This document shows, in pieces, positions 2,014 to 55,549 of a stretch of 64,000 nucleotides of DNA. A program made the position numbers and the translations under genes. Where the stretch lies: positions 32,985 through 96,984 of the forward strand of contig QZJF01000005.1 in the NCBI GenBank assembly GCA_003599255.1. The letters run 5' to 3'. Origin of the DNA: a candidate division WWE3 bacterium (GTDB taxonomy: Bacteria; Patescibacteriota; WWE3; UBA101185; UBA10185). How positions within the stretch are numbered: the stretch's first letter is position 1; every line of letters starts with the position of its first letter. The notes beneath the pieces were generated by a model. That model ran no database searches, was not told where the DNA came from, and saw nothing but the letters and a program-made list of their open reading frames with translations.

Positions 2014-2049
2014 GTATCTATTTCAAATTTATCCATCTTTTGATAACCT

Positions 2050-3474: not shown

Positions 3475-3485
3475 AAGGAAAAAAC

Positions 3486-4433: not shown

Positions 4434-4472
4434 AGCTCCGGATCATGAAGAAATAAACCTGTTAAGAAAAGG

Positions 4473-4498: not shown

Positions 4499-4522
4499 GT
4501 ATTCAATTTAAGTTAAGCAAAA

Positions 4523-13909: not shown

Positions 13910-13965
13910 TATATAAATTCTAATTTACTGTTTTGTTTAATCCACTAATCCCTGCTGTAGTTCGG

Positions 13966-22929: not shown

Positions 22930-23092
22930 TGTTAGATCCCTATTTTTCGTCAGTAAATTGTCCCATTTTTAACAAATATGAACAAGCAATTTTGCTTGAT
23001 TTCACGCCAAATAACTGAACATATAATGTGTTCGATTGCATTAAAACGTATGTTTTCAACACTTCCGCTACTTGAACACAAAAGATGTACAT

Positions 23093-26000
23093 TTAATCAT
23101 ATCCAAAGTTAACAGCCCCAGAACTATATTCGCTCCTTACCTGGTTTTCAGTCATGGCATAATTAAAGATTCTTATGTTATCTATTAGTCCACCGAAGAA
23201 GTTTCTGTAACCGTTATTGTTTATGTTTCTGGTTGCACCTATTATCAAATTATTATTTGATGCTACAACATCGACTGTACCGGTTGCTTTTAAATTTCCG
23301 TTTACATAGATATAGCTTGTAGATCCGTTGGTTATTCCTACAATATGCGTCCATGTATCATTTAAAATAGATTCGGTAGTGTCCAAACAACTGCCCCCAA
23401 ATCCGCCCAAACTGACATTTCCGCCATCGTTAATAAACAATCCCCAGCCTTCAGTTCCATTGCACGGATCGTCTGCAAGTCCGCGGGCCACTATAGCCTT
23501 ATTTCCTGTTAAATCAGTGGTTTTTACCCACGCAGATATTGTCACAGGATTTAAATCCAAATCAAGTTTGCTCGAGGCACCAGCTGTGACGGATACATAA
23601 TCATCTGTTTCGTCAAACCCAAGGGAGGCACTATGCTTACCGGTTGTACCATCGTTCCACATTTCCGTAGAAGTGCCGGAGCCACATGTACCCGCAGATG
23701 TATTTCCAGAGGCCCCGGGGGTAATGGTTCCGTTTAGTCCGTTTCCGCTGGAGTCATTGGCGGTTGTTCCGCTGCACTCGTCGAATTTCCACCAAGCTAC
23801 CGGCTCGCCGCGGCTGTATTCCCAGGCAATTTGCTCAGCGGATCGGGCGTAATTGTATAGGCGGACTTCATCAATCTTTCCTGCCCACCATTCCGAAAAA
23901 CTATCAGTTCCGCTGTCATAAACACCCACATCCAGATCCTGTGTATTTTCAGACACTCCACCGTATGTGTAATTAAGGGAAGAATTATCGACCGTACCGT
24001 TAATATATAGGTACATGTTGTCGTTAGAAGTACCGGTGGTTTCATCCATAGTAAACACAACGTGATACCACTGATTCAAATTAAGTGACGTATTAGAGGT
24101 CAGGCATGCCATGCCTATGCAGGCACTCAAGTTTTCCGAACTATCTACAGCAATATAATAGTTAGGCCCCCCGCCTTTACTCAGTACTGTTTTATATCCG
24201 GATGTGATATCAGTATCAAGATAAATCCATGTGGCTATGGTAATATCACCTGTAATATCCAGATCGCTGTCGTCAGCAAATGCAACACGGCTACTTGTAC
24301 CATTAAAGTTAAGGGCAGTCCCAGTTTTTCCGGGAGTCCAACTTGCTCCAGTAACAGTGCCGTTTGCAGTTGTATCTGCTACATTTACAACATATACGTC
24401 TGAATTCTCATCAAAGTTTGCATGAAATACAGGTGGTGTACAAGTCGAACCTTGTCCGGACGGGCAGTATGTATTGGCAGATGCCCAGGTGGGGTTGCCA
24501 GAAGAATCGGTCCCGGTTGCTCCGAAGACCTGAGCTTTGCCTTGCGCATACTCGACTTTTGCTTGTTCGGCTGTTAACACAAAATTGTATATTTTGACTT
24601 CGTCAATATGCCCATCAAATGTTTGTGTGCCTCCAACTTGGTTGTTGCCGATAGTGATGGTGCTGGTGCTGTCATCCAGCGGGGATCCGGCACCTTCCGT
24701 AGCTGTATCATGGCCGACTTCTAAGCCGTTAACATAAAAATGCACTCCCGACGAGGCTGTACCTCCGTCCCAGGTTACCATGACGTGCTGCCATTCATTA
24801 AAAGTTATTGAATTAACGGCTGAAGCCACTGTTAGATCTGTAGTGCCAAGCATTTTTCTAAAAGACATATTGCTGGCACCAGCGCTGTTGTTTATTGCCC
24901 ATCTGAATCCGTCAGTACCGGGTGTTGTTTTTGCCATGATAAAAGCAAAGTCGAATTCTCCAGCACTTTGGGGATTGATCCAAGCCGATAAAGTAAATTC
25001 TGTCATGTTATCTACACTTGACGAAGCCCCCATACGAACCACGTCATCGTTTGTGCCTGATGTTCCTCCTGCAGGCCCTTCAAATTCCAATGCTCTGTCA
25101 AATTTTCCATCATTTCTCCACTGAGGGCAGTCTGTGGTTCCGGATTGAGGACAAGTTAAGCTGCTATCTCCCAGATCCCCATCAAGTGCGCTACCGGCAG
25201 ACCCTGAATTTCTTGCTGTATCTCCATAGCCTTCGTCAAATTTCCACCACGCTACAGCGGAACCGATGGGGGAGCCCGGTGCGGGGTGGGAGGCGTTCAT
25301 ATCCTGTACAATCTGTGCCGGTGTCCTGGTGTAGTTGTAGATCTTTACGTCGTCCATAATTCCGTCCACGGCGTTGCTTGTACTTTGCTGGGCATTACCG
25401 ATAGCAAAGCTGTCGCTGTTAGTCCAGGTCTGTGCGGATGTATCGGTTGATTTTAAATTTCCGTTCACATACAAGGAGTAGGTGGTGCCGGATTTTGTAA
25501 CTGCCACATGCTGCCAGGTTTTTGTAGTCAGTGTTACGTTGTCGACCTCAAACAAACTATCGGCATTACTCTCACCAATGTTCATCAATATTTCACTTGA
25601 TGCGTAGCCCATGCACCAGTCCATGGTGGAATAAGAAAATCTCTTGCACAAGAATCCATCTACTCCCAGAGTATTTGGATATACCCAAAACATGAATGAA
25701 AAGTTATCAGTGTCATCAGTCATAAAATTTGTGGAATCCTCAATGGTTATGTAGTCATCTGTATTGTCAAACTCACAGCCGGTACCGAACTTTCCCGGTG
25801 TATTGCACTTCATGCCCGAATCGTTGGCACCGTCATATGTTGTGGCCGGATTTCCGTTTCCACTGGAGTCTTTTAGAGTTACACCGTTTCCTGCTGAGTT
25901 TTCATCCATTTTCCAGTATCCTGCGGGCCCCGGTGCCCAGTTGTGTAGATCCCTCACTTCGGAAGAAGAGAGCGCACGATTGTAAATACGGACTTCATCA

Positions 26001-29000
26001 ACTTGACCATTAAATGATCTTCCTGATATACCAGGATCATCTCCGATACTAATATCATCATCATTGGATGCAACTGACGTAGTGTTGTCATCCCCGGTGC
26101 TTATTAACTCACCGTCTATGTACAAGTAAACTTTATCGGTGTTTGTGTTCCGAACACCTACAGCATGGTGCCAGTTACCGTCGTTATATGCACCTGAACT
26201 TTCCGCATATCCCGCATTGCCTCCATAGATTCTAAATGCAACACGTTCTGTACTGTTAGTTATCATAAGCCAGAATGGGTAGGCAGGACCATTTGCGTTT
26301 TTATTTACAATAGTTCCGTTATCCGTATATTCCGCGCTGGTATTAAACCAAGCTGAAACTGTATATGAATCGTCTGTAGCACCTAAGTCGGTGGATGCTG
26401 TTTCGGCAACTCTGACCCCGTCATCTGTGCCGTCAAAACTCAAGGAGCTTCCGTACTTGCCGGTTGCCCAGCCGGTGTCACCGCTCCAAGTTGTTGAATT
26501 ATTGCTATTTCCGCTGGAATCACTAACGGATGTTCCGGTATTTTCATCCATGTCCCAGTGTGCAACTAAACCCTGTTCAAGCTGATTATATATATTCATG
26601 CCAAATGCCTGTGAAATTGGTGTTGAAGTTATATCGCCTTTGACCTGGTTCTCGGTTTTTGCATAAGGATAAATTGAGACCTCATCTATGTCAGCATCCC
26701 ATGGGTTGGAGGTTCCGTCTGAATCTATTCCTATGTATAATTTTGCGTTAGCACTCAAAGAACCCAATGTTACAGATCCTGTTTGTGCGATTTGTGATCC
26801 GTCAATAAATAATGTGATCGTTGACGTATCTTTGACAGCATCGAAATGATGCCAGGTTGAGTCAGCGTAGGAAGTAGGGGAGCATACAGAGTAATCCGGT
26901 CCCCATGAAGAATCGTCATCGACTCCAAAACATATATTTCCGGTGCTGTTCATATACACTTTCCACCCGGCCGTTCCGTACCGGGCTATCAGAGTATCGG
27001 TGCCGGTTATTGACGATGGATGTTGAAACCAGCCCTGAACCGTAAAACCTTCTGTCCCAAAGTCAAAATCACGATCCCAATCCTGATAAACATAATCGTC
27101 GGTTGCGTCAAAGTGCAAATGATTTACCGTAAGCGCGTTGGGATTTGGAGAAACTGCATGCCACTCGGCTCCTGAAACTGTCAGATGATTACCGTATTGT
27201 GATGAGTCATGTGCTGTGGTGCCGCAGCATTCATCAAAGTGCCAATAGCCCACCGGGTCTTGGCCTTTATCACCGCTGAACCGGTCGACTTCAATATTGT
27301 CAGAGCGGGAAACTAGCCCGGAATAGTATATATCAGCTGCCTGGGTTGAAGTAAGAGCAGTGTCAAAGATACGCAGGTCGCTGTATGACCAGAATTCATC
27401 CGTACTGTATTGATCCCCAAGCTCAATATTACCTATGCTGGGCGGCTCAGTTATATCCGAGTTTGTAGTACCTATAGCGCCATTGCCATATAGAGAAATT
27501 CCGTTTGTTGTATCCCAGGTAGCAACAAGGTGTACCCAAGTGTCTGCAGACAGAGAAGAAGGATTATATATTGCAGTGTAGTTTGTAGTGCAATCGATCC
27601 ATTTCTGAATCTCAAATCTGTCCCCATATCCCGGGCTTGAATACCTTAGCATGAACCCTTCGCAGTTGTTTCGCATAGAAATAATATTGTAATTGTGGTT
27701 CGATTCCATAGTGGAATCTCCTAGCATAGGTTTCACCCAAATGCTAAGTGAGCCAGAAGTTGTTGATACATTGCCTGTCTTTGTGTATGTTAGATCGGTG
27801 TCCGCTCGGGTGCTGGTGCTGTCATGTTCCGTTCCGGTCCACGCATAACCTGTTCCAATTGAGCCGTCGGTGTATGTTGTGGCGTGTTCTTTTTCTTCAA
27901 GTTGAAAGCCGTCTACATATATAACTTTTCCGGGTTCCACAGAAATTCCAAACTCTTGAACACCGGAAGCAGCCGCTCCTGTATAGCTCAACCTCCACCA
28001 ACCGCCTCCCATGTCCTTGTAAGTTGTGGTCTGTTCTGTGCCGTTAAATATTAGAGAGGCCACTGACGAACTTACGTCATATCCATAAAACAAAAAAGTA
28101 GTGCCTGAAATAACATTCGATTGACTATACACGTATGCGGATAGAGTATGGGTGTTGGTATTTCCTGCATCCACTGAGAAAGTTAAAGTCATGGGATTTG
28201 AGTCAATGATGGAGAAAATATAATCGTAGCTTGCAGTAGGTGTCCACACATTGGATTCGTTCATTCGCGTATAGGTGCCGTTTGGATATGTCGCTGAAGT
28301 ATAGTCATACAACCATTTCACAGTGCTATCAGAGTCCAAGACAGCTTGTTCAATTGTTCCATCTACGTCGGTGTACGCTATCAGAACAATGTAGTACTGA
28401 GTCCCGCTTGTTAAAGATGGCGATGAAGCAAAGCTAAATGTTACATCGGTGTAAGAGGTGAATGAGGATACCAACACTGCCTCGCTCTGACCGTTAGTAA
28501 TAGGTGTTCCGGACGGCGATCCGCCGGAGTCAGACTGTATCTCAACACGCATAGAAACGGTTGTATAGCTTGAACCAGACTTAAACATGGGCAAAATTAT
28601 TGATGAAGCCGAAGTACTCGAAGAAACCTGAAAACCCTGGGCAAGTCTTTTGGAGCTTGTATCCAGGTACAACCCTGAATATACCTGCTGTGCATTATCA
28701 AACCCATAACCCTCAACATATCCACTGAGCTTGGCGCTCTTATTGCCAAATCTTGAAAAGTTTGAAGTTGAATTCTCATTTTCAGTTAGACCTGATCCTG
28801 CCGTCCAGTCATTGACATAACTCGAGTGCTCAAATGAGGGATTAGTTATCTTGTTGGTTGTAACCTCTTCAATAAATATTCCCTCGTGACCTGAATATGT
28901 GTTTCCTCCGGCTGATTTGCCGGTATTTGTCGCCGATGCATCTACTCCCACAAGCCCTGAAATGTATCCCGGATCTGTGTTTTCTACTGCTGTAGTACTA

Positions 29001-30307
29001 CCCAGAGTTCCGTGATTGCCATTGCCTGAATCGTCGAAAACTTTTCCGGTCTGTCTGGGATCATTTCGATTTTCATCAAAGTGTAGCAACAGCTTAGTAT
29101 AATCGTCCCTTAAATAGGGGATGGTCTGAGGAGTAAAATTTGAATCATAGCGGGCGATGTTCGATATTCTGAATTCATCCATTAGTCCGCGGTAAAACCC
29201 GGTTTGACAAGCAACTGAGCCGATCCTGAAGGTGTCCGCGTCACCATTATACGCACCGACTCCAGCCGTTTGAGTAGAATATGATGCTTCGGTTCCGTTG
29301 ATAAACACTCTTCCAGTTTTATTTGAAGAAGTATAGACAATTGCCACATGGGTCCATTGATTGCCGCTCACAGTGGTGCTTGTCGTTGTAACTGTATCCG
29401 TTGTGGCGTTTTCAACGCGTAACGTGATTGCCCCACCGGATATGTCGGCACGAAATCCATCAATAGTACAGCCGTATGTACCAAAAATAAACTGTGCCGG
29501 CCCGTAGGAAATATTATTGTAATTAAGCCACATCTCTACCGTGAAGTCTCCTTCAGGCAGATTGTCCAATGTAGTGTAAGAAGTTCCAAAAAGGACAAAG
29601 TCATTTGCCCCGTCAAAGTTGAGAGCCGACTTGGATCCTGTATATCTCCCAGCCCCCGTATCCGTGGTAGGTTCTTCCAGTCCATCCCCGTTAATACAGT
29701 CCGTCGTTCCATCAAACGGGCAAATGAGAAGAGCGTTAGTCGATCCGACATCGAATGTATCCACGTTGTTTGCCGTTATTGCATCTTTATTTCCATAATA
29801 CAAATAGTAATCGTCAGCTGACGCGCCGTTTGTCAGAGCTGCCTGAAGTTTGAAATATACTTTGGCAATTCCGGATGTGTGGCACGTACCCCCACCCGAT
29901 GGCGATGTGTAACTATCCAGTTCCGTATGTGATGTGTCGTCTGTGGTATAAACAATTCTTATGTCCTCACAGTTTTCTTTAAGAACGCCTCTGTTAGCCA
30001 TACTCAACGTATCGACGGTAACTGCGACGGTTGTACCCGAGGCCAATTCATCTCCGGAATTGTTAGTTATATTAAGTTTTTGTCTCTTTTCCCAGGCTGT
30101 GTGAGCGGGGGACCATTGTGCTTCTACGGGTTTAGAGTGTCGTGCAAGATAGATAAAGATTGGGACGGTGATGATAAGTAATCCCAGCGCAAAAGGAGCC
30201 AGTACTTTTTGATACTTTTTAAAATATTTTTTTAAAATCTTTAGGCGGTGCACTTGGCTCAGGCCCTTTTTTATTATTTTATTCAACATTGAGAATCCAC
30301 CAGTCAA
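23093..30307 (-). CDS. Giant surface protein 3 (2404 aa): paralog of genes 1 and 2, LamG/ConA-like multidomain
   Basis: The track start at 30307 is a TTG codon; the first ATG is at 30289 (MLNKIIKK...). It carries the same module: VLAPFALGLLIITVPIFIYLARHSKPVEAQWSP...WEKRQKLNITNNS...NCEDIRIVY. LamG motifs include MDEFRISNIARYDSNF, VDEVRIYNRALSSSEV, IDEVKIYNFVLTAEQA and IDEVRLYNYARSAEQI. The C-terminus is ...SGAVNFGYD. Its start overlaps the stop of gene 4 by 11–29 nt. Confidence 0.85.
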   Translation of the reverse strand: MTGGFSMLNKIIKKGLSQVHRLKILKKYFKKYQKVLAPFALGLLIITVPIFIYLARHSKPVEAQWSPAHTAWEKRQKLNITNNSGDELASGTTVAVTVDTLSMANRGVLKENCEDIRIVYTTDDTSHTELDSYTSPSGGGTCHTSGIAKVYFKLQAALTNGASADDYYLYYGNKDAITANNVDTFDVGSTNALLICPFDGTTDCINGDGLEEPTTDTGAGRYTGSKSALNFDGANDFVLFGTSYTTLDNLPEGDFTVEMWLNYNNISYGPAQFIFGTYGCTIDGFRADISGGAITLRVENATTDTVTTTSTTVSGNQWTHVAIVYTSSNKTGRVFINGTEASYSTQTAGVGAYNGDADTFRIGSVACQTGFYRGLMDEFRISNIARYDSNFTPQTIPYLRDDYTKLLLHFDENRNDPRQTGKVFDDSGNGNHGTLGSTTAVENTDPGYISGLVGVDASATNTGKSAGGNTYSGHEGIFIEEVTTNKITNPSFEHSSYVNDWTAGSGLTENENSTSNFSRFGNKSAKLSGYVEGYGFDNAQQVYSGLYLDTSSKRLAQGFQVSSSTSASSIILPMFKSGSSYTTVSMRVEIQSDSGGSPSGTPITNGQSEAVLVSSFTSYTDVTFSFASSPSLTSGTQYYIVLIAYTDVDGTIEQAVLDSDSTVKWLYDYTSATYPNGTYTRMNESNVWTPTASYDYIFSIIDSNPMTLTFSVDAGNTNTHTLSAYVYSQSNVISGTTFLFYGYDVSSSVASLIFNGTEQTTTYKDMGGGWWRLSYTGAAASGVQEFGISVEPGKVIYVDGFQLEEKEHATTYTDGSIGTGYAWTGTEHDSTSTRADTDLTYTKTGNVSTTSGSLSIWVKPMLGDSTMESNHNYNIISMRNNCEGFMLRYSSPGYGDRFEIQKWIDCTTNYTAIYNPSSLSADTWVHLVATWDTTNGISLYGNGAIGTTNSDITEPPSIGNIELGDQYSTDEFWSYSDLRIFDTALTSTQAADIYYSGLVSRSDNIEVDRFSGDKGQDPVGYWHFDECCGTTAHDSSQYGNHLTVSGAEWHAVSPNPNALTVNHLHFDATDDYVYQDWDRDFDFGTEGFTVQGWFQHPSSITGTDTLIARYGTAGWKVYMNSTGNICFGVDDDSSWGPDYSVCSPTSYADSTWHHFDAVKDTSTITLFIDGSQIAQTGSVTLGSLSANAKLYIGIDSDGTSNPWDADIDEVSIYPYAKTENQVKGDITSTPISQAFGMNIYNQLEQGLVAHWDMDENTGTSVSDSSGNSNNSTTWSGDTGWATGKYGSSLSFDGTDDGVRVAETASTDLGATDDSYTVSAWFNTSAEYTDNGTIVNKNANGPAYPFWLMITNSTERVAFRIYGGNAGYAESSGAYNDGNWHHAVGVRNTNTDKVYLYIDGELISTGDDNTTSVASNDDDISIGDDPGISGRSFNGQVDEVRIYNRALSSSEVRDLHNWAPGPAGYWKMDENSAGNGVTLKDSSGNGNPATTYDGANDSGMKCNTPGKFGTGCEFDNTDDYITIEDSTNFMTDDTDNFSFMFWVYPNTLGVDGFLCKRFSYSTMDWCMGYASSEILMNIGESNADSLFEVDNVTLTTKTWQHVAVTKSGTTYSLYVNGNLKSTDTSAQTWTNSDSFAIGNAQQSTSNAVDGIMDDVKIYNYTRTPAQIVQDMNASHPAPGSPIGSAVAWWKFDEGYGDTARNSGSAGSALDGDLGDSSLTCPQSGTTDCPQWRNDGKFDRALEFEGPAGGTSGTNDDVVRMGASSSVDNMTEFTLSAWINPQSAGEFDFAFIMAKTTPGTDGFRWAINNSAGASNMSFRKMLGTTDLTVASAVNSITFNEWQHVMVTWDGGTASSGVHFYVNGLEVGHDTATEGAGSPLDDSTSTITIGNNQVGGTQTFDGHIDEVKIYNFVLTAEQAKVEYAQGKAQVFGATGTDSSGNPTWASANTYCPSGQGSTCTPPVFHANFDENSDVYVVNVADTTANGTVTGASWTPGKTGTALNFNGTSSRVAFADDSDLDITGDITIATWIYLDTDITSGYKTVLSKGGGPNYYIAVDSSENLSACIGMACLTSNTSLNLNQWYHVVFTMDETTGTSNDNMYLYINGTVDNSSLNYTYGGVSENTQDLDVGVYDSGTDSFSEWWAGKIDEVRLYNYARSAEQIAWEYSRGEPVAWWKFDECSGTTANDSSGNGLNGTITPGASGNTSAGTCGSGTSTEMWNDGTTGKHSASLGFDETDDYVSVTAGASSKLDLDLNPVTISAWVKTTDLTGNKAIVARGLADDPCNGTEGWGLFINDGGNVSLGGFGGSCLDTTESILNDTWTHIVGITNGSTSYIYVNGNLKATGTVDVVASNNNLIIGATRNINNNGYRNFFGGLIDNIRIFNYAMTENQVRSEYSSGAVNFGYD

Positions 30308-33300
30308 AACTTATATCCTGGAAGTGGGGGACATCCAGGCCAACCTTAAATGAAGTTCCATCTATCTTTTCTTTTACGATTAAAGCCTGGCCGTTTGTAC
30401 TGGATGTAGCGGTTACAAATATCTTTGATCCGGCCTTAACATTGGTATTAGCTATCAGGACTTCTGTTTGTCCTGCAGTTATTGTTCCGCTTCCTACCAA
30501 GGTCGAGGTACCTTTTACCGAGAACTCGTCTGCTACCACTTTCTCAGCATTTATAGTTCCATCAACAGTTAGTGTTCCGTTTGGTTCGAGAACAATCTTG
30601 CCATCAAATATATCCAGATTGCCTGAGAGTTCTTTTTGCAGATACAGAGTCTGTGCTTCACACAGAACCTGATTGGTTGTTCCAAGTGTTTCGTTGTAGC
30701 AGCTGGGTCCGACTATTCCAATGGAGTTGCTTAATGAATCTATTTCCACCAGTCCCGCCATCAGATCTCCGGTTACCACTAAGTTGGAAAGCGTGGTATC
30801 TCCGGTGACGTTAAGATCCGTAGTTACTGCCAGCTGACCGTCGTTGTTTTGTAATCCAAGTTCGCTGACCATGTCCTTGAAATCGTTGTAAAGGGTCTCG
30901 ATTTGGTTCAATATGCCCATTGGATCAGTGAGTAAAGTAAGCAGGTTAAATGATTCTGTTGATTCGGTAGATTCAGTTGACTCTGTCGATTCGGTGCTTT
31001 GAGTGCTAGAACCCATGCCTAGCAATTCCTTTATTAGCGCTACGTCGTTTTTTACGTTATCAACCTCTTCTTCCAGTGTGATAAAGTCATTTCCTAGGTT
31101 GTCATAGTTTTGGGTCAATTGAGCAAATTCTGATTCCAATGTGGTGATTCTTGTATCAAAACCGACCGTTGTGTCGGTTACTTGTTGATATGTATCCTGT
31201 ACGTCTGTTTGAAGTTGGGTGGTTATACCCATAACATCGCCAAAGCTGTCGATTTGAATCTGCTGTTCTTGTAGCGCTCCCAGAAGTACGACTCCTAGCC
31301 TGTCGTATTTCACACCCTTTGGTGTAATACCGTCTGCCTCATAGCTCACTAAGAATGGCATTACCTGTTCAACCTGTTCGGCGATCAAACCGAAGTCTTC
31401 CACATCAGGTGTAACTGTTGTGCTATTCCATTTAAAGGTTACGGGGTTGAGTTGTAGCACTGAATCAAGATTTATGTCCAGATCGCTTATATCTTTTTTG
31501 AATCTTTCGCTTGATGAAAGCTGAATCAGCTGATTGTTTGAATCAAAGTAGAGTGCCGTACCTGTTCCTGTAGGAATGTTGGAAACTCGGGCTGTTCCGT
31601 TTACATCCAATGTGTAACCGGGTTCAGAAGTTCCGATTCCTACATTTCCGCTCACAATCAGACCGTTGGTGGGTGCTGTGCTGACTCCTGCGTATGTGCC
31701 GAATGCGGCGTTTCCAAATACATCCAGTGTGTTTTGAGGTGTAGTGGTTCCGATTCCTATTCTGTCATTGGTTGTATCAAGATTTAACAGGTTGTTTCCA
31801 AAGTTCAAAGCCGTGGTGGAGGTGGCAAGTGACCACGCCTGTGCCTGATTTAGTGTCACTCCGCCTGCAGCATCAAGTACTACATCACCACTGTTGAATG
31901 TCCTTAGGGTAAGATTATTGCTTTCATGAGATTCTCCTACTTCAAGGTAGAGCGGTGCATAAGTTTTGATATAGCTGGAGGATTGACCGGTGAATTGAAT
32001 GTCATTTGCTATTGAAACATCTCCTGCTGCAGCGAAAGAGTGGGGGAGATAAGAAGTAATAACAGTCTGATTAATTGTAAACAGCTCACTATTGTCGTCG
32101 TATACGCCAAAGAGATTACCTCCATCAAGAGTGCCGTTTGATCCTATATTAATTTTGAACAGATCTCCGGTAGCGGTTGAAGAAGAGATAGGCGACCAGT
32201 CTATACTTGTTAGTGCCCCTGCCAGTGTGGTTGAAGTCGAAGATACCGATAGTCCTGTTCCCGTGGTCAGCCCGTCGAATGAGAATAGTGCGCCTGTACC
32301 TGTAGTTACGTTGTCTGCGAACACGCCTAGTGCACCTTGTGTAGTAGCGCTTCTAACATCAAGCTGGTAGCCAACTGCGGTGGTACCGATTCCCACATTT
32401 CCACTGACAAGCAACCCGTTTGCAGGAGCGGTGTCGGTTCCTGCATATGAACCGATTACAGCATTTCCTGATATATCGAGTTTGTTTTGTGGAGTAACTG
32501 TTCCTATCCCAACTCTTGCATTAGTGGTATCAAAGTTCATTAGTCCGGATTCAATATTAAGTGCCGTTGTTGAAGCTGCCAGATTAAGGCTCGCAGTATT
32601 TGAAGATATCCAGGTTCCTGCGTTTAGAGTAAGTGTGTCTGATGAGTCATCACCAAGTGTTGTGTCTCCGTTGACGTTGAGACCGTAATTAAAGGTAGAG
32701 TCATTTGTTCCTGATCCAATATTAAATATACTTCCGAACTGATCTCTAAAGTCGTAGGAAAGCCCATTAGTACCGTCTGCAAAGAATCTCATGGTACCGC
32801 TTCCAACACCAAGTGAATAAGTATCTATGGAAGTGTAGCTAGAATATCCGGATTCCTGAATTCGAAACCCGCCATTTATGTGAAGGGTATCCTGCGGACT
32901 TGAGTTTCCGATTCCCATTCTGGAGTTGATATTGTCCCAATAGAAATCCTGCGATGATGCCAGGGATGAACTTCCATCCCAGAATGATACTCTTCCTGCT
33001 ACACCTGTACCGGTAATTGTTCCACTGCCTGCTTCCGGAGAGCATTTCCAGACTTGCTGCGAAGAATCCCAGGTAAGAAGTTCTCCGTTACCGCAGCCAC
33101 CGAGTAATCTGAGTCCGTCTGCGGCAACCTCAAGTCCCGAATTTGATGCTGTGGTTGAAGTAGTAGACGTAGTAGCTACATCCAGTGACAAAGCCGTACC
33201 AGAAAGTATGAGTCCGTTTCCTACAAAATCTCCTATGGTTTCTCCTCCGAGTCTGATAGTTCCATTTACATCAAGTGTGGCTGCAGGGTTTGTTGTTCCG

Positions 33301-36300
33301 ATTCCAATGTTACCTGAAGTATTAATTACAAAGAATGGATTGGTTCCGGATGAAAGACCGTCTCCTATTGCAAATATGTCGTCATCTGTGCTGTCTGAGT
33401 CTTCCAGCACGCCCATCCAGAAATCGGTATCAGTACCGCTTTCTACATCGAACAACAATGTAGGATCATTGTCGTAAAGTACAAAATTGCCTCCCAAATC
33501 TGCTACGATATCTCCGGATCCGTAAGTTCTTAAGGTCAGATCATTATTTTCAAAACTCTCACCCGCAATTATTGTGAATGGTCCGTAACTTTCAATCTGG
33601 GAAGAAGTCTGATTTGTAAATATGGCATCGTAGGAGAACGATACGTCACCTGCTGAAGAGAAAGTATGTGGCAAGTAGGAGGTTATTTGCGACTGTGTAA
33701 TCGTGAACAATGGAGAATTGTCATCATAAACTGCAAACAGGTTTCCGGTAAGTGAGCCGTTTGATCCTATGTTTATACTGAACAGATCTCCGGATGCTGT
33801 GGCCGATGATAACGGTGACCAGTCAACTGCCGCCAGAGTTCCGGTTGAGAATGCAGTTGAAGTAGAGCTTATTGATAGACCGGTTCCTGTTGTCAGCCCG
33901 TCAAAAGAGAATAGAGCTCCGGTTCCTGTGGTTACAGAATCTGCAAATACTCCCAGGCCCCCTGTAGTTGACCCGCTGAACACTTCGAGCATATATGACG
34001 GATTGGTTGTTCCCACACCTACATTGGTTCCGTCGTCATAAAGAATGCCTGTGGAAAGGGTATTGTTATCGGTCCACCTCGCTACGTAATTAGCAATTCC
34101 GGTTCCGTCCGTGATATTGAGAAGGGGAGCAGTGGAGGCGGAAGTAAGTCTTCCTTCGGCATCTACGGTTACTATCGGAATTCCCGTAGTAGATCCGTAT
34201 GTTCCGGCTGCTACTCCGGTATCAGAAAGATCAATGGTTCCGGTAGAGTCGATTGTTGCATCTCCGCCCATGGCCTTAACATTCCATCCGGTTCCGGTTC
34301 CGATCAGAAGTGAACCCGATGGAGCGGTTGAAGTATCAAGTCCCGTACCTCCGTTAGTAGTTCCCAAAACATTGCTTACATTTAATGAACTGGAAAGATC
34401 GATTGCGCTTTGGGTTAGGACCTGCGATCCATCCAACGAAAGGTATGTAGCGGTGCCGGCCAGCTGAAGGGCAGGATGTGTGTCCGATGCTAAAGAGTAG
34501 TTTAAGAAATTAGCGTCCAAGTCATTAAGCACCGCCTGCACATTTGTGCTGTTTGAAAAATCGAATTCATCATTAACTCCTACTAAATATGCGCCGGAAG
34601 TTGTTGGAGCGGAAGTGCTACTCAGTCCGATCGAACCTATCAATAGATCGGAGCCCGAGGCTATTCTAATATCACCGTTTACGTCCAGAGTGAACGCAGG
34701 TGCGGTTGTTCCAAGTCCTAATCTGCCGGTACTGGTATCCCAGAAGAAACTGTCGCTGCCCGTTATTGAGGAAGTTCCATCCCAGAAAGCAACTTGTCCT
34801 ATTGAGCCCGATCCTGTAAGCCCGGCTGCAACAGATGAACATTTCCAAACTTCCTGTGAAGTATCCCAGGTTAGTGCTTCCCCGTTTGAACAGCCACCCA
34901 GTAATCTGAGTCCATCCGCGGTTACTTCGAGCCCTGAGTTTGAAGCTGTTGTAGAGGTTGTAGAAGTTGTTGTCACATCCAGTGACAGGGCAGTACCGGA
35001 CACTATTAAACCGTCACCGACAAAGTCTCCTATAGATTCTCCGCCGATATCAATTTGCCCTAATGAAGCAGTGTTTCCGTAAATAGTCCCGTCAATTTCC
35101 AGGTTTCCAAACACGTATAAATCTTCAGCTGCTGAAGCATTGTCAAACGTGTATCCCGAATCGGGGGCAACATAGAGATCCCCGCCAACGGCATGAAGTA
35201 TCGCATCCGGTGCCGTTGTACCGAGTCCCAATCTGCTTGTTCCGCTATCCCAGAATAAACTATCGTTGCCTGTTAGCGATGTAGAGCCGTCCCAAAAAGC
35301 GACTTGTCCCGCAGTTCCTGAGCCGGAAAGTCCTGCGGCAACCGCTGTACAATCCCAAACCTCTCTTGATGAATCCCAAATAAGGGCTTCTCCGTCAGCG
35401 CATCCACCTAATAATCTTAGTCCATCCGCTGTTACCTCAAGACCGGAGTTTGCCGCAGTAGTGGAGGTGGTGGAAGTTGTTGTCACATCCAATGACAGGG
35501 CAGTACCGGACACTATTAAACCGCTTCCTACAAAATCACCTATGGTTTCACCCCCGAGTCTGATCGCCCCGTTAATTTCAAGTTTTGCTGCAGGATTGGT
35601 TGTTCCTATACCTATATCACCGGAGGTTGTAATAGCAAAGAATGGATTGGTGCCCGATGAGGTTCCGTCGCCGATTACCAGCAAGTCGTTGTCGGTGTTA
35701 TCCGAATTTTCAAGTATTCCCATCCAGAAGTCGGTATCTGTTGCGGTTTCTGTGTCAAAGACTAAGGTTGGATCGTTGTCGTAAAGTACAAAATTACCTC
35801 CAAGGTCGGCAATAATGTTTCCGGTGCCGTAAGTTCTTAGAGTTAAATTATTGCTTTCAAAGCTTTCACCGGCAATTATGGAGAACGGGCCGTAGCTTTC
35901 TATCTGAGCAGAAGTCTGATTTGTAAATATTGCGTCATAGGAGAACGAAACATCCCCTGCCGCAGTAAACACGTGGGGAACCGCAGATTCAATCTGATTT
36001 TGTTGAACGGTAAATACTGCAGCACCGTCGTCGTAAACCGCAAATAAGTTTCCGGTTAATGAGCCGTTGGACCCAATGTTTATGCTAAACAGATCTCCGG
36101 ATGCTGTAGCGGAGGACAATGGCGACCAGTCAACTGCAGCAAGAGTGCCGGTTGAAAAACTGGAAGAGGTAGAACTGATGGATAGTCCTGTACCGGTTGT
36201 CAGGCCATCAAATGAGAAGAGTGCTCCAGTGCCTGTTGTTACTGAATCGGCAAACACACCAAGCCCCCCTGTTGTTGATCCGCTGTAAACATCGAGAATG

Positions 36301-39300
36301 TAGGCTGGGTTGGTGGTGCCGACACCAACGTTTGTGCCATTGTCATAAAGAATTCCTGTGGAGAGTGTATTTTCATCAGTCCACCTCGCAACATAATTTG
36401 TTATACCTGTTCCGTCGGTAACATTGAGAAGGGGAGCAGTGGACGCGGAGGTAAGTCTACCTTCAGCATCTACGGTTATTATTGGAATGCCGGTTGCAGA
36501 TCCATAGGTTCCTGCTCCAACGCCTGTATCTGAAAGGTCCAATGTACCGGTACTGTCTATTGTGGCATCACCGCCCATAGCTTTTACATTCCATCCGGTT
36601 CCTGTGCCAAGTAAAATGGAGCCTGATGGTGCGGTAGATGTATCAAGACCTGTGCCGCCGTAGGCGACTCCGAGTTGATTTGAAACATTTGAAGTATTTG
36701 ATAAATCTATAGCGCTTTGAGTCAATATCTGTGAAGCCGCGCTCAATGAAAGGTAGTTGGCGGTTCCTGCAAGCTGAAGCGCCGGATGTGTATCTCCTGC
36801 AAGTGAGTAATTTAAGAAATTCGCATCAAGATCATTGAGAACAGCTTGTACATTAGTACTATTTGAGAAGTCAAACTCATCGTTGACCCCGATAATATAT
36901 GCACCGGAAGTAGTTGGGGCAGAAGTGCTGCTTAACCCAATTGATCCAACAAAGAAATCCGAACCGGATGCAACCCTTACATCACCGTTCACATCAAGTG
37001 TGAATGCCGGTGCGGTTGTTCCAAGGCCGAGTCTGCTGGTATTGCTGTCCCAGAAGAAGCTATCGCTACCAGTTATTGAGGAGGTTCCATCCCAGAAAGC
37101 AACTTGACCTATTGTACCTGCGCCAGTGAGCCCTGCTGCAACCGAGGAGCATTTCCACACTTGCAGGGTAGTGTCCCAGGTAAGTGCTTCACCGTTCGAA
37201 CAGCCGCCCAGAAGTCTAAGACCATCTGCTGTTACTTCTAATCCGGAATTTGATGCAGTAACTGATGTTGTTCCGGTTGTTGTTGCGTCGATCGTTATGT
37301 CATTGGCGTTTACCGTTATTCCGTCTCCGGCCCCTATGTCCAGGGTAAGTACTCCTGTTGTCCCGCCACCGGTCAATCCGGATCCTGCGGTAACGCCGGT
37401 AGTTGCGTAGGTACTAACGTTTGACGAGTCTACTATGACATCAGATCCCCAGTACAAGTCACCGGTAGGTGAGCCTGCTGCTGCGGAAGTGTTCAATATA
37501 TTATTTGTACCCGCAGTACCAAGTCTTATTCCACCGCTTACATCCAGTCTCTCAACAGGGTTTGTGGTACCTATTCCTACATACCCGCTGCCATCGATAA
37601 GAAGTCTTTTAAGAGTAGATTGGCCATCAGAAATCCAGAATTCACCCTGTGTTGTGGCGGTACCGGACCCATCGACCCCTAAATTCCAGGTTCTGATATT
37701 GCTTCTAAGCGCTATGTCGATACCGGTTGTTTGGTTAAACCCATCAGCCAGTATGGCAGTTCCAACTCCAACCACATGAAGTTCTTGATTGGGGTTTGTT
37801 GTACCGATTCCGAAGTAAGTGCCAGTGTCATATGCAATTCCTGTAGATAAAGTATTGCTATCAATCCATCTGGCAACGTAATTGGCAATACCACTGCCAT
37901 CTGTGATATTAAGCAAAGGTGAGGTTGATGCGGCAGTAAGCCTGCCTTCGGAATCTACAGTGATTACTGGTATTCCGGTTGCAGATCCATATGTACCTGC
38001 TCCCACTCCTGTATCGGAAAGATCCAGAGTTCCTGTTGAGTCTATCGTTGCGTCTCCGCCCATAGCCTTAACATTCCATCCTGTTCCTGTACCTATGAGT
38101 AATGTTCCTGAAGGAGCGGTTGAAGTATCAAGTCCGGTACCACCGTAAGCTACTCCCAATTGATTTGAAACGTTAGACGTGTTTGAAAGGTCAATGGCGC
38201 TTTGAGTCAGCACCTGCGACCCATTAAGTGAAAGGTAATTGGCAGTACCTGCGAGCTGAAGAGCAGGGTGTGTGTCAGCAGCCAAAGAGTAGTTTAAGAA
38301 GTTGGCATCAAAGTCATTTAGAACGGCCTGAACATTTGTGCTATTCGAGAAATCGAATTCATCATTTACCCCTATTAAATACGCACCAGATGTTGTTGGG
38401 GCGGAAGTGCTGCTAAGTCCAATTGAGCCAACAAAGAAATCTGATCCGGATGCAACCCTTACATCACCATTAACATCGAGTTTGAATGCAGGGGCTGTTG
38501 TTCCGAGTCCTAATAGTGTTCCTGTATCGTAGAGAAGCCCTGTGGATAATGTATTGTCATCGGTCCATCTGGCAACGTAATTTGCAATGCCGCTTCCGTC
38601 AGTAATATTAAGAAGGGGAGCGGTGGACGCGGAGGTAAGCCTGCCTTCGGCATCTACAGTGAAAACAGGTATTCCTGTGGATGATCCATATGTTCCTGCA
38701 CCTACTCCGGTATCGGAAAGGTCCAGTGTTCCTGTTGAGTCTATTGTTGCGTCTCCGCCCATGGCTTTTACATTCCATCCGGTTCCGGTCCCGATCAAGA
38801 GAGTTCCTGAAGGAGCGGTTGAAGTATCAAGTCCTGTACCTCCGTAAGCTACTCCAAGCTGGTTAGTGACATTTGAGGTGTTCGAAAGATCTATCGCACT
38901 TTGTGTCAATATTTGTGAAGCGGCGTCCAATGAAAGGTAGTTGGCGGTGCCGGCTAGTTGAAGGGCAGGATGTGTATCTCCTGCGAGAGAGTAGTTTAAG
39001 AAATTGGCGTCCAGGTCATTCAATACTGCCTGCACATTTGTACTGTTCGAGAAATCAAACTCATCATTAACTCCTACTAAATATGCACCTGAGGTGGTTG
39101 GAGCAGAAGTGCTGCTTAATCCAATTGAACCTACAAAGAAGTCTGAGCCTGAAGCAACTCTAACATCGCCATTCACATCAAGAGCAAATGCCGGTGCTGT
39201 GGTACCAATTCCAAGTCTGTTTAGAGATGAATCCCAGAAAAAGCTATCACTTCCGGTCAAAGAAGAAGTTCCATTCCAGAATGTTACCTGGCCGATAGCT

Positions 39301-47555: not shown

Positions 47556-47582
47556 TTTTTATCCTTTTCAAATGTTGTTATA

Positions 47583-47632
47583 AAAACATTTGATAATGTT
47601 TTAATGATATGAAACACAGGTTTATGTGTCAA
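47583..47632 (-). promoter_or_regulatory. Sigma70-like promoter of giant gene 4 with an overlapping palindromic operator-like element
   Basis: Read on the minus strand: TTGACA at 47632–47627, a 17-nt spacer, then TATCAT at 47609–47604. Just downstream lies AAAACATT-tgat-AATGTTTT (47583–47602), with a further inverted copy CAAATGTT at 47569–47576 between the predicted TSS and the RBS. Confidence 0.4.
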
Positions 47633-48335
47633 CACTTTTCGAAGGTTGGAATATGTTGTTGTTACAATATATAATGCCTGTCAATGTGTATTGATAAACG
47701 TGAATATTTTTTTTGTTGTTACAGCAATAAAAGATAACCTTTATTTTTAATATAAATTCCTGCAAAAATCGAGTAAACTTTGTCCGGAATTATTTGACCT
47801 GTGACTTTGAAAATTATTTAAAAAATATTGTAAATTTTGCGATACTGTTGTCATATATTTTCCTAGTGACTTCTTTTCTCTAAGTTTTTGTGTTTCGTTT
47901 GTCCGGTTAATTGATTTGTAAAAAATTTGAAACAGTTTTAAACTTAGATTTCAAAGGTCATTAATTTTAGACATAGATTTTCATATAACCATGCCTGGGT
48001 AAAAAAGTAGTTCATTTGTTAATCTTTTAGATATCTCAAGGATGCACTGCGAACTTACATATTTTCTATTTAACCCATGTAACTCTCAAGTTTACTTAAT
48101 ACTTTAAAAAATTTTTAATTTCTGTAGAATTTTATTAACGGCTTTTACCTTTAATCTACATTTTTTAATTACGGCTTATTGCTCGGACAGCGTAGTGAGT
48201 TAAGATCCAGCTTGACGTCAATGGAGATTATTATAATGACCGTTAGAGTAGTGATGTTTTTAATGTTTACCAAATGCCGTCGATACAGCATTTAACAATG
48301 TATATTTGTTTAAATATTCTGGTTGTATCGTGTAG

Positions 48336-49124
<789 letters not shown>

Positions 49125-49153
49125 ATGAGTTTTTAGTGTGATAAACTAATTTT

Positions 49154-55088: not shown

Positions 55089-55093
55089 ATGTT

Positions 55094-55537: not shown

Positions 55538-55549
55538 ATATTTTAATAA

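What the first reader, a model, noticed from the sequence alone, without database searches (positions are those of the whole stretch)
31280..31530. Phage-type S74 intramolecular-chaperone/autoprotease domain at the C-terminal region of a chromosomal 5758-aa protein
The segment LSSSERFKKDISDLDINLDSVLQLNPVTFKWNSTTVTPDVEDFGLIAEQVEQVMPFLVSYEADGITPKGVKYDRLGVVLLGALQEQQ has the hallmarks of the peptidase S74 'chaperone of endosialidase' domain. There is a Ser followed by a downstream Lys dyad, the xLxPVxFxWK core and the GxIAQEVxxVxP helix. That domain trimerises phage tail spikes and fibres such as K1F endoNF and T5 pb1, then auto-cleaves off. Upstream are about 5000 aa of tail-fibre-like GIGTTxP..LDVNG modules. 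No phage structural, integrase or terminase genes are present, and the protein carries an N-terminal TM anchor. It therefore looks like a domesticated, cell-anchored trimeric megafibre.
Basis: partly seen in the sequence, partly recalled or inferred. Interest (0 to 1): 0.8.

Follow-up and report, generated by a model that had tools for sequence, protein, structure and literature searches.

The report
Phage-like self-cleaving giant surface fibre
A 5758-residue chromosomal protein of a tiny WWE3 (candidate phyla radiation, CPR) bacterium does carry the phage-type S74 self-cleaving trimerisation domain, so it joins the recently described class of bacterial "phage-like" surface fibres, with an unusual cytoplasmic DNA-binding-type head and an extra tailspike-like end piece.

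Summary
The quoted peptide is aa 5346-5432 of a 5758-aa ORF (window 30279-47555, minus strand). It hits Pfam PF13884 (Peptidase_S74) at E=2e-11, 44.4 bits against a cut-off of 22. The catalytic Ser5348-x4-Lys5353 dyad is present and conserved in homologues. A confident AF2 model (pLDDT 87) matches the solved MyRF and endoNF chaperone (ICA) domains.

The context is chromosomal: ribosomal proteins, ATP synthase, no phage genes, and the same gene order in a WWE3 genome.

The idea of a cell-anchored, S74-bearing trimeric fibre is not new. Bdellovibrio MAT fibres (Caulton 2024) are exactly that, with cleavage shown experimentally. NCBI already labels Patescibacteria S74 proteins as "tail fiber domain-containing".

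Four things go beyond that:
- The size of the protein.
- A conserved cytoplasmic MerR-type HTH before the single TM. At least 17 related protein clusters share it.
- S74 is internal. It is followed by a 95-aa helix, an (STE)n linker and a roughly 220-aa tailspike-C-terminus-like domain (CTD) found in 1225 protein clusters.
- In relatives, the S74 slot is filled instead by a phi29-gp12 (G2) autochaperone or a HINT domain.

Best reading: an attachment fibre that trimerises from its C-terminus and then cuts off a 44.6-kDa cassette. This is a new variant of a known kind.

The parts
30279..47555 (-). G1: 5758-aa ORF (585 kDa) encoding the giant fibre protein. The stop codon is at 30279-30281.
   Evidence: The frame is uninterrupted. 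Homologues of 2995-7185 aa share the same end-to-end architecture.
47325..47471 (-). Cytoplasmic MerR-type helix-turn-helix, aa 29-77.
   Evidence: PF00376 scores 32.2 bits (cut-off 28.2) and PF13411 scores 28.6 bits (cut-off 21.6). It is strongly conserved in 5 N-terminal homologues (A3). An HTH HMM finds it at the N-terminus of at least 17 CTD-bearing representative proteins. Pfam confirms it in four of these.
46974..47033 (-). Single transmembrane anchor, aa ~175-194 (GGIIIFIVFAFGLLTFMGF). The upstream flank is K/R-rich, consistent with an N-in orientation.
   Evidence: It is the only segment with Kyte-Doolittle hydropathy above 1.9 in 5758 aa.
32856..45458 (-). Repetitive fibre body, aa ~700-4900. 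It consists of ~430-aa modules (232-aa and 199-aa sub-units). Each sub-unit has a VGIGTTxPxxxLDVxG capping-loop motif, and each module has a Cys-x16-Cys pair.
   Evidence: Self-BLAST gives mostly 70-80% identity between modules, with distal copies down to ~48%. All 20 Cys are paired.
31515..31778 (-). Last stalk segment before the cleavage site, aa 5260-5347. It holds the two final capping-loop motifs (RIGIGTTTPQNTLDVFG and GNVGIGTSEPGYTLDVNG).
   Evidence: The sequence is. The same pair of motifs aligns to the Bdellovibrio Bd3182 MAT tip, 8ojn (profile E=7.3e-5; alignment). The motif is described in PMC10769870.
31347..31514 (-). S74/ICA core (Pfam PF13884), aa 5348-5403. The catalytic Ser5348 codon is at 31512-31514 and the Lys5353 codon at 31497-31499. 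The predicted scissile bond is Ser5347|Ser5348.
   Evidence: E=2e-11. Ser, Arg and Lys are invariant in the 5 closest homologues. Translation was checked. Foldseek matches the MyRF ICA 7dc3 with probability 1.00 and TMt 0.55-0.58. The profile against PDB gives 6f45 at 3.8e-11 and 7dc3 at 3.1e-5.
31023..31307 (-). 95-residue continuous helix, aa 5417-5511. This is the helical part of the chaperone domain and a presumed trimeric coiled coil.
30945..31022 (-). Disordered Ser/Thr/Glu linker, aa 5512-5537 (LGMGSSTQSTESTESTESTESTESFN).
   Evidence: Translation is. pLDDT is below 50 at model residues 189-209. The linker is conserved in homologues.
30282..30944 (-). C-terminal domain (CTD), aa 5538-5758. 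It has two helices and then a beta-rich domain ending in FDWWILNVE. It resembles the C-terminal part of phage tailspikes and depolymerases.
5771..30307 (-). Three further giant genes directly downstream on the same strand: G2 at 23093-30307, G3 at 13966-22929 and G4 at 5771-13909. Each has one N-terminal TM and 8-9 Laminin_G_3 domains. G2's start overlaps G1's stop.

Best explanation
G1 is a chromosomally inherited surface fibre of a WWE3 (CPR/Patescibacteria) bacterium. It is of the same kind as the Bdellovibrio MAT 'phage-like' adhesin fibres.

Topology and assembly:
- The first 174 residues stay in the cytoplasm and carry a MerR-type HTH.
- One TM helix anchors the chain.
- About 5150 residues of repetitive, disulfide-stapled fibre are exported.
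- Three chains are brought into register from the C-terminal end by the S74 intramolecular-chaperone domain (aa 5348-~5511) and the tailspike-like CTD.

Processing: once the trimer has formed, the Ser5348/Lys5353 dyad cuts the Ser5347|Ser5348 bond. This separates a 541-kDa membrane-anchored fibre from a 44.6-kDa cassette made of the ICA domain, coiled coil, (STE)n linker and CTD. As in phage spikes and in Bd3182, the cut would mature or expose the fibre tip.

Probable role: attachment to a partner or host cell surface.

What is shown here: domain identities, the conserved dyad, predicted folds, the implied topology, chromosomal context and family distribution.

What is inferred: trimerisation, cleavage, the fate of the released cassette, and the adhesive role.
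For: S74 identity:
- Pfam E=2e-11.
- Ser, Arg and Lys are invariant in the closest homologues.
- S-x4-K occurs in 84 of 94 S74 hits, and the rest are close variants.
- The AF2 model (pLDDT 87) matches MyRF ICA at probability 1.00 and endoNF 3gw6 at probability 0.87.
- The profile hits S16 gp37 (6f45) at 3.8e-11 and MyRF at 3.1e-5.

The catalytic residues are retained even though the domain is internal. Ser+5Lys is kept in 46 of 46 evaluable S74 domains of CTD-bearing proteins.

The slot between the fibre and the coiled-coil/linker/CTD cassette is filled by three unrelated autoprocessing modules:
- S74 in 33 of the 64 representatives that have more than 250 aa upstream of the CTD.
- A phi29-gp12/G2 autochaperone motif in 26 of the 35 S74-less representatives that have at least 300 aa upstream. 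The profile hits 6qz9 at 5.4e-9 and 3gqh, the cleavage product starting DFAEYFE, at 1.3e-8.
- PT-HINT at 64.8 bits in P0281.
This pattern argues that cleavage at this joint is selected.

Precedent: Bdellovibrio MAT fibres are surface-displayed, 13 of 21 end in S74, and Bd3182 self-cleaves at S782, blocked by S782A (PMC10769870). The Bd3182 tip shares the capping-loop motif with G1.

Cellular origin:
- Housekeeping flanks.
- Synteny with WWE3 GCA_003517995.1.
- GC3 equal to host genes.
- All 6 genome loci found are CPR.

Extracytoplasmic location: a single N-terminal TM, and all 20 Cys occur in 10 regular pairs.

Giant membrane proteins of CPR have been proposed as host-attachment fibres (PMC8080830).
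Against: - No multimer prediction, proteomics or biochemistry was available. Trimerisation and cleavage are therefore by analogy.
- If the CTD is the functional distal tip, cutting it off is counter-intuitive.
- The oxyanion-stabilising Arg is missing in 12 of 46 internal S74 domains, including the closest relative P0241 (SSEIFK).
- 8 of 35 S74-less relatives show no recognisable autoprotease.
- The conserved cytoplasmic HTH has no role in a pure adhesin model.
- MAT proteins have a signal peptide and a conserved ~130-aa N-domain, not an HTH plus TM.
Confidence: 0.6

Rival explanations
1. S74 acts here only as a permanent trimerisation or folding nucleus and does not cleave, or cleaves without dissociating. 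The tailspike-like CTD then remains as the receptor-binding distal tip of the mature fibre.
For: - The domain is internal.
- The CTD is the most widely conserved part of the family (1225 clusters).
- The CTD resembles tailspike and depolymerase C-terminal domains, which are retained in mature spikes.
- Arg is lost in 12 of 46 internal S74 domains.
- 8 of 35 S74-less relatives have no recognisable protease, so in those the CTD stays attached.
Against: - Ser and Lys are kept in 46 of 46 evaluable internal S74 domains.
- Substitution of the same slot by G2 and HINT autoproteases is hard to explain unless cleavage matters.
- Internal ICA domains do cleave in MYRF (PMC3742443).
Confidence: 0.22
2. 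G1 is a membrane-tethered regulator of the ToxR/CadC or MYRF type. The giant fibre senses contact, and the cytoplasmic MerR-type HTH transduces this to DNA, either while tethered or after intramembrane proteolysis. This could coexist with the adhesin role.
For: - The HTH passes the Pfam cut-off.
- It is conserved at the N-terminus of at least 17 related giant proteins, most with a TM at aa 100-215.
- An M50 (site-2-protease family) gene lies 9 kb away, and its position is syntenic in L001.
- The N-terminal cytoplasmic DNA-binding domain, TM and ectodomain order is the ToxR topology (established knowledge).
Against: - HTH and S74 are on opposite sides of the membrane and 5150 residues apart. 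S74 cleavage therefore cannot free the HTH as it does in MYRF.
- The M50 gene sits in a housekeeping secE-nusG neighbourhood, and it is absent from the ~2-10 kb of flank examined around the L002 homologue.
- No conserved operator was found upstream.
- N-terminal HTH plus TM can also be a protein-binding anchor, as in RodZ (established knowledge).
Confidence: 0.1
3. A polymorphic-toxin-like delivery fibre, in which the autoprotease releases the C-terminal module as an effector.
For: - Polymorphic toxins combine tail-fibre repeats with releasing proteases such as HINT (PMC3482391).
- A PT-HINT occupies the slot in P0281.
Against: - The CTD is conserved, not polymorphic (38-78% identity across the 150 best of 1225 representative clusters).
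- Its fold is a tailspike C-terminal beta domain, not a toxin.
- No immunity-like small gene follows. The next gene is a 2404-aa LamG giant.
Confidence: 0.04
4. A tail-fibre gene of a prophage, tailocin or extracellular contractile injection system.
For: - PHROG tail-fibre families and 260 phage records match the S74 part.
- S74 occurs in eCIS fibres, judging from the paper titles listed.
Against: - There are no capsid, terminase, integrase, sheath, tube or baseplate genes in 64 kb.
- The N-terminal HTH plus TM is incompatible with a virion fibre.
- The position is syntenic in another WWE3 genome.
- GC3 is host-like.
- No phage record covers the CTD.
Confidence: 0.02

Closest known systems
Bdellovibrio bacteriovorus MAT (mosaic adhesive trimer) fibres, S74 subgroup, e.g. 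Bd3182 (Caulton et al. 2024, PMC10769870; PDB 8ojn)
   Same: - Chromosomal, cell-surface, fibre-like proteins with a VGxGTxxPxxxL capping-loop motif before an S74 domain with an S-x4-K site. Self-cleavage has been demonstrated for Bd3182.
- Non-S74 members carry alternative tips.
- The proposed role is recognition of another bacterium's surface.
- The G1 family profile hits 8ojn at E=7.3e-5.
   Different: - MATs are ~600-1900 aa, against 5758 aa for G1.
- MATs have a signal peptide and a conserved ~130-aa beta-rich N-domain. G1 has a cytoplasmic MerR HTH plus a TM.
- In MATs S74 is terminal. In G1 it is followed by a long coiled coil, a linker and a conserved CTD.
- MATs come from a diderm predator, G1 from a CPR bacterium. 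No CPR member is listed in that paper.
Phage C-terminal intramolecular chaperone domains: K1F endoNF (3GW6), T5 pb1 (4UW8), S16 gp37 (6F45)
   Same: - The Pfam family, the Ser/Lys dyad with Arg, the fold, and the position after a fibrous stalk.
- PHROG tail-fibre profiles align at their extreme C-termini.
   Different: - In phages the domain ends the protein. The median distance from Ser to the C-terminus is 127 aa.
- G1 is a cellular, membrane-anchored protein with 411 aa from Ser to the end.
MYRF, the eukaryotic membrane-bound transcription factor with an ICA domain (7DC3; PMC3742443, PMC8326128)
   Same: - A cellular protein that combines a DNA-binding-type domain, a TM helix and a non-terminal ICA domain.
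- Best solved structural match to the S74 part (probability 1.00).
   Different: - In MYRF the order is DBD-ICA-TM, so cleavage frees the DBD.
- In G1 the order is HTH-TM-fibre-ICA, so cleavage cannot free the HTH.
phi29 gp12 pre-neck appendage autochaperone (Peptidase_G2; 3GQH, 3SUC, 6QZ9)
   Same: It occupies the same slot as S74, upstream of the coiled-coil/linker/CTD, in 26 relatives of G1. It is functionally analogous: an intramolecular chaperone that cuts itself off.
   Different: It is unrelated in sequence and uses a D-x-x-E site. It is not present in G1 itself.
C-terminal domains of phage depolymerase tailspikes (K64-1 S2-4 9K4A; K1 lyase 7W1C, Pfam PF24146; cyanophage Pam1 7EEA)
   Different: - G1 itself is below the Pfam cut-off (22.5 against 27).
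- No catalytic beta-helix of a depolymerase was detected upstream.
- In phages this domain is not preceded by an S74 domain.
RodZ and ToxR-type proteins (N-terminal cytoplasmic HTH, single TM, extracytoplasmic domain)
   Same: The topology of the N-terminal 200 aa (from established knowledge).
   Different: The HTH class differs (XRE or OmpR-type against MerR/excisionase-like), and the ectodomain is unrelated. No homology was tested.

Membership tests
Peptidase S74 / ICA domain (PF13884) | Match to the family HMM above the curated cut-off | tested here: met
   44.4 bits against a cut-off of 22, E=2e-11, profile positions 1-57 of 58.
Peptidase S74 / ICA domain (PF13884) | Catalytic Ser and Lys five residues apart, with an Arg stabilising the oxyanion (PMC3742443) | tested here: met
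   S5348, R5351 and K5353 (SSERFK). They are invariant in the 5 closest homologues. SxxRxK occurs in 81 of 94 hits, and S-x4-K in 84 of 94.
Peptidase S74 / ICA domain (PF13884) | Fold like solved ICA domains | tested here: met
   The monomer AF2 model (pLDDT 87) matches 7dc3 with probability 1.00, TMt 0.55-0.58 and 110 columns, and 3gw6 with probability 0.87. There are many BFVD S74 proteins among the hits.
Peptidase S74 / ICA domain (PF13884) | Trimerisation-dependent self-cleavage N-terminal to the Ser | not testable with these tools
   This needs a multimer model or biochemistry. It is inferred from conservation and from Bd3182, endoNF and MYRF.
Peptidase S74 / ICA domain (PF13884) | Located at the extreme C-terminus. 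This is typical of phage members but is not a universal rule, since MYRF is internal. | tested here: not met
   411 aa run from the Ser to the end, against a median of 127.
MAT superfamily (Caulton 2024) | Signal peptide followed by a conserved ~130-aa beta-rich N-terminal domain | tested here: inconclusive
   G1 starts with an HTH (aa 29-77) and a TM (aa 175-194) rather than a signal peptide. Homology of aa 196-400 to the MAT N-domain could not be tested because no Bdellovibrio N-domain sequence was available.
MAT superfamily (Caulton 2024) | Beta-helical fibre with V-G-x-x-x-x-P-x-x-x-L capping loops before the tip | tested here: met
   There are 27 GIGT-type motifs. The last two align with those of Bd3182. 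The profile E-value against 8ojn is 7.3e-5. This is a sequence-level test only.
MAT superfamily (Caulton 2024) | Surface display and a trimeric state | not testable with these tools
   Only topology was inferred, from the TM and the paired Cys.
MYRF-type membrane-bound transcription factor | DNA-binding domain and ICA on the same side of the membrane, so that ICA cleavage releases the DNA-binding domain | tested here: not met
   The order is HTH (29-77), TM (175-194) and then ICA (5348-).
MerR-family transcription regulator | N-terminal MerR HTH | tested here: met
   PF00376 scores 32.2 bits against 28.2, and PF13411 scores 28.6 against 21.6.
MerR-family transcription regulator | Dimerisation coiled coil and effector-binding C-terminal domain after the HTH | tested here: not met
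   The HTH is followed by a low-complexity linker and a TM. NCBIfam gives only sub-threshold BldC and excisionase-type hits.
Prophage or virion tail fibre | Encoded among phage structural or integration genes | tested here: not met
   The flanks are housekeeping genes, and the position is syntenic in a WWE3 genome.
Trimeric autotransporter adhesin | C-terminal YadA-type beta-barrel membrane anchor | tested here: not met
   There is no such Pfam hit. The C-terminus is a soluble beta domain and the anchor is an N-terminal TM.
K1-lyase_C (PF24146) | HMM match above the cut-off | tested here: inconclusive

The most novel reading that the evidence does not exclude
G1 would represent an undescribed CPR-wide class of 'HTH-tethered' giant fibres. 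A cytoplasmic MerR-type DNA-binding head is physically coupled, through one TM helix, to a phage-like trimeric fibre about 0.3 micrometre long (length extrapolated). The far end of the fibre carries a detachable tailspike-like cassette, released by interchangeable autoproteases (S74, G2 or HINT). On this reading, contact with a host cell, or loss of the cassette, is signalled to the chromosome. The protein would be a one-protein contact sensor and adhesin in organisms with very few regulators.
Probability: 0.1. Interest if true: 0.85.

Novelty: new variant of a known kind. Interest (0 to 1): 0.55.

Why it matters
CPR/Patescibacteria are mostly uncultured episymbionts, and how they recognise host cells is largely unknown. 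This locus shows that the phage-derived S74 fibre principle, demonstrated in Bdellovibrio, extends to CPR and to half-megadalton proteins.

It also exposes two features that can be tested directly:
- A conserved joint where three unrelated self-cleaving modules alternate in front of one conserved end-cassette. This implies that programmed removal or release of that cassette is functionally important.
- A conserved cytoplasmic HTH on an extracellular fibre. This is a possible direct link between the surface and the nucleoid.

The four adjacent giant genes take up 65% of this 64-kb window, so they are a substantial investment for a genome of the small size typical of CPR.

Tried and rejected
- The first AF2 run used a 6-sequence alignment and was too poor to use (pLDDT 45.7). 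It was replaced by a 90-sequence alignment.
- The afdb50 fold library was unavailable.
- An exact-sequence look-up of the window's L11 protein found no record, so the source genome is not in that collection.
- TRF found no DNA tandem repeats in G1, because the modules exceed its 500-bp period limit. The repeats were shown at protein level instead.
- Aligning the ~0.8-1 kb upstream regions of G1 and its L001 homologue showed no conserved operator. A repeat scan of that region failed on a strand-format error.
- NCBIfam gave nothing for the S74/CTD region or the body.
- tblastn against 50,697 phage records matched only the S74 part, never the CTD.
- The global MAFFT alignment A2 is unreliable around the dyad. 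Dyad statistics were therefore taken from A1 and from HMM-anchored motif scans.
- The prophage, TAA, MYRF-like release and polymorphic-toxin readings were considered and rejected for the reasons given under the rival explanations.
- Two family scans failed on a frame error and were repeated.
Full report
**1. The observation**

The window holds a 5758-aa ORF on the minus strand (30279-47555). Pfam PF13884 (Peptidase_S74, 'chaperone of endosialidase') matches aa 5348-5403 over 57 of 58 profile positions. The score is E=2e-11 and 44.4 bits, against a curated cut-off of 22. The site reads S5347-S5348-S-E-R5351-F-K5353. It aligns to the SSDRRIKKDI site of the phage S16 fibre chaperone 6f45. That gives Ser5348 and Lys5353 as the dyad, spaced like S578/K583 of MYRF (PMC3742443).

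**2. Conservation**

In the five closest C-terminal homologues, Ser, Arg and Lys are invariant (A1). Among 94 S74 domains from the first search, 84 have S-x4-K in the strict pattern and the rest are near variants.

**3. Fold**

A 90-sequence alignment gave pLDDT 87 for aa 5326-5758. Foldseek against PDB returns the MyRF ICA domain (7dc3, probability 1.00, TMt 0.55-0.58) and the endoNF chaperone (3gw6, probability 0.87). BFVD returns many viral 'Peptidase S74' and 'ICA domain' proteins. A family profile hits 6f45 at 3.8e-11, MyRF at 3.1e-5 and phi29 gp12 at 0.011.

**4. Context**

The flanks encode the following:
- GH57, glycogen synthase, GalT and L10 on one side.
- F-type ATP synthase, L1, L11, NusG, an M50 peptidase, FolD, a DHH phosphoesterase, amylase and GH113 on the other.

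There are no phage genes and no tRNAs. An N-terminal homologue, P0122, comes from a candidate division WWE3 genome. Its locus L001 has the same order: M50, secE, nusG, rplK, rplA, ATP synthase, then the giant gene. GC3 of the giants (0.38-0.415) is close to that of neighbouring genes (0.33-0.385). A scan of 185,579 species genomes returned six related loci, all CPR: two WWE3, two labelled 'Saccharibacteria', one Nomurabacteria and one Patescibacteria. This is a resident chromosomal gene of a WWE3-like CPR bacterium.

**5.

(a) N-terminus. A MerR-type HTH lies at aa 29-77, above Pfam cut-offs. A linker follows, and then the only hydrophobic helix of the protein at aa ~175-194. The HTH is conserved in five homologues. 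A complete 2995-aa WWE3 protein (L002) shows the same HTH-TM-fibre-S74-CTD layout in a different chromosomal neighbourhood. An HTH HMM finds the domain at the N-terminus of at least 17 related representative proteins of 1320-7185 aa, most with a TM at aa 100-215. Pfam confirms it in four of them.

(b) Body. The modules are ~430 aa long and mostly 70-80% identical to each other, with distal copies down to ~48%. They carry VGIGTTxPxxxLDVxG motifs. All 20 cysteines fall into 10 regular pairs. This fits an exported, disulfide-stapled fibre.

(c) C-terminus. S74 is internal. After the S74 core come, in order:
- A single 95-aa helix (aa 5417-5511).
- A disordered (STE)n linker.
- A ~220-aa C-terminal domain, the CTD.

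From Ser5348 to the end there are 411 aa (44.6 kDa). The median in homologues is 127 aa.

**6. The CTD**

An exhaustive search with the last 231 aa found 1225 representative clusters (E<=1e-3). In all 150 best hits listed, the match lies at or near the C-terminus of proteins of 112-7185 aa. The fold matches the C-terminal parts of phage depolymerase tailspikes:

BFVD hits are annotated 'K1 capsule-specific polysaccharide lyase C-terminal domain'. At sequence level, G1 is just under the PF24146 cut-off (22.5 against 27), while two relatives pass. No cultured-phage record covers the CTD.

**7. The slot before the cassette**

Of the 64 CTD proteins with more than 250 aa upstream of the CTD, 33 have S74 roughly 90-450 aa upstream of the CTD, most often 100-180 aa. 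In these internal S74 domains, Ser+5Lys is retained in 46 of 46 evaluable cases and Arg in 34 of 46.

Of the 35 S74-less proteins with at least 300 aa upstream, 26 have a D-x-A-E-x-[FY] motif 130-250 aa before the CTD. A profile of 12 such segments hits the phi29 gp12 autochaperone: 6qz9 at E=5.4e-9, and 3gqh, the released product starting DFAEYFE, at 1.3e-8. It also hits the Dpo31 chaperone domain at 2.9e-5. This is the Peptidase_G2 type of intramolecular chaperone.

One relative, P0281, has a PT-HINT domain there at 64.8 bits. Other Patescibacteria S74 proteins are followed by Bact_surface_Ig-like domains.

Three unrelated self-processing modules at one joint is the strongest indirect argument here that cleavage between the fibre and the cassette is a selected function.

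**8. What is already known**

The profile hit to 8ojn led to Caulton et al. 2024 (PMC10769870). Bdellovibrio encodes 21 'mosaic adhesive trimer' (MAT) fibres. They are displayed on the predator surface, and 13 end in S74 with an SDxxxK site. Bd3182 self-cleaves at S782, and S782A abolishes this. Its tip carries capping loops with the motif V-G-G/N-pi-x-x-P-x-x-x-L, which is shared with MyRF. The non-S74 members end in beta-sandwich, TNF-like or lectin tips. Homologues are listed for other predators, including Omnitrophica, up to 1915 aa. None is CPR.

G1's last two capping motifs align with those of Bd3182. NCBI already names several Patescibacteria hits 'tail fiber domain-containing protein'. 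Giant membrane proteins of the CPR predator Vampirococcus were proposed as host-attachment fibres (PMC8080830).

G1 is a divergent, much larger variant with a different anchor and an internal S74.

**9. Mechanism**

Steps shown here:
- The domain identities.
- The conserved catalytic residues.
- The predicted folds.
- The topology implied by the single TM and the paired Cys.
- The chromosomal context and the family-wide architecture.

Steps inferred:
- Three chains anchored by their N-terminal TM are registered from the C-terminus by the ICA domain, coiled coil and CTD.
- The dyad then cuts Ser5347|Ser5348.
- This leaves a 541-kDa anchored fibre with an exposed capping-loop tip and a 44.6-kDa cassette that is released or loosely held.
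- The fibre serves attachment to a partner cell. By scaling from the Bd3182 model (~550 angstrom for 922 aa), it could reach ~0.3 micrometre.

I put 0.95 on S74 identity, ~0.8 on a trimeric surface fibre, ~0.65 on actual cleavage and ~0.5 on an adhesive role. That gives 0.6 for the whole statement.

The main rival (0.22) is a non-releasing S74 with the CTD as the permanent tip. The conserved HTH is unexplained by either. A ToxR-like or RodZ-like role is possible (0.1). A MYRF-like release is excluded by the domain order. The prophage or eCIS reading (0.02) and the polymorphic-toxin reading (0.04) fit poorly.

**10. Verdict**

The finding is a new variant of a known kind and is of moderate interest. 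The S74 hit itself is not the interesting part. The interest lies in the HTH-TM head, the interchangeable autoprotease slot and the conserved tailspike-like end cassette across CPR giant proteins.

Noticed in passing
window 5771-30307 (minus strand): Three more giant genes follow G1 directly on the same strand, of 2404, 2987 and 2712 aa. Each has one N-terminal TM and 8-9 Laminin_G_3 (ConA-like lectin) domains. Together with G1 they total 13,861 aa and cover 65% of the window.
   Followed up: partly
window 30279-30307: G2's possible starts (TTG at 30307, ATG at 30289) overlap G1's last codons and its stop (30279-30281). This suggests one operon with translational coupling.
   Followed up: no
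window 4970-5500 and 54435-56155; L001 1111-2832: The usually contiguous nusG-rplK-rplA-rplJ cluster is split. L10 lies ~49 kb from L1, separated by the ATP synthase operon (on the opposite strand) and the four giants. The rplA/ATP-synthase/giant-gene order is the same in a WWE3 genome.
   Followed up: partly
G1 aa 1095-5632 (window ~30660-44273): All 20 cysteines of G1 form 10 pairs. Nine pairs are spaced exactly 17 residues apart, within motifs such as GGCxxxQxLxWxxxxxxWxC in the repeat region. One pair, spaced 13 apart, lies in the CTD. These are probably disulfide staples.
   Followed up: partly
P0246, P0251, P0260 and others; alignment A5: Relatives that lack S74 carry a phi29-gp12-type (Peptidase_G2) autochaperone with a D-x-A-E-x-F/Y site in the same slot. 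P0281 carries a PT-HINT domain there.
   Followed up: yes
G1 aa ~317-428 (window ~46272-46607): A stretch of roughly 65 aa within this region is ~55% identical to more than 100 otherwise unrelated proteins of 250-780 aa and matches phrog_30390 (unknown function). It contains the sequence ...ITQLGTITTGVWQGTEIAPENGGTGLTSYTTGDLLYAS.... It may be a widespread fibre 'adapter' motif.
   Followed up: no
L002 228-2199: The complete 2995-aa WWE3 homologue is preceded by a PEGA-domain protein and a divergently oriented sortase. G1's CTD has no LPXTG-like signal.
   Followed up: no
window 56427-57032; L001 190-798: A short (201-202 aa) M50 site-2-protease-family gene sits beside secE-nusG in both genomes, 9-10 kb from the HTH-TM giant gene. 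Its relevance to the tethered HTH is unknown.
   Followed up: no
window 48345-50402: Three ORFs upstream of atpA (259, 244 and 180 aa) have no Pfam hit at E<=1e-3. They presumably include the divergent a and b/delta subunits of the ATP synthase.
   Followed up: no
window 47556-47700: Two sigma-70-like TTGACA boxes with downstream TATA-like hexamers lie within ~130 nt upstream of G1's start. There is no sequence conservation with the upstream region of the L001 homologue.
   Followed up: no
P0043, P0061, P0027, P0094 (other Patescibacteria): Internal S74 domains followed by Bact_surface_Ig-like (PF16403) domains. A non-terminal S74 seems common in CPR proteins generally.
   Followed up: partly
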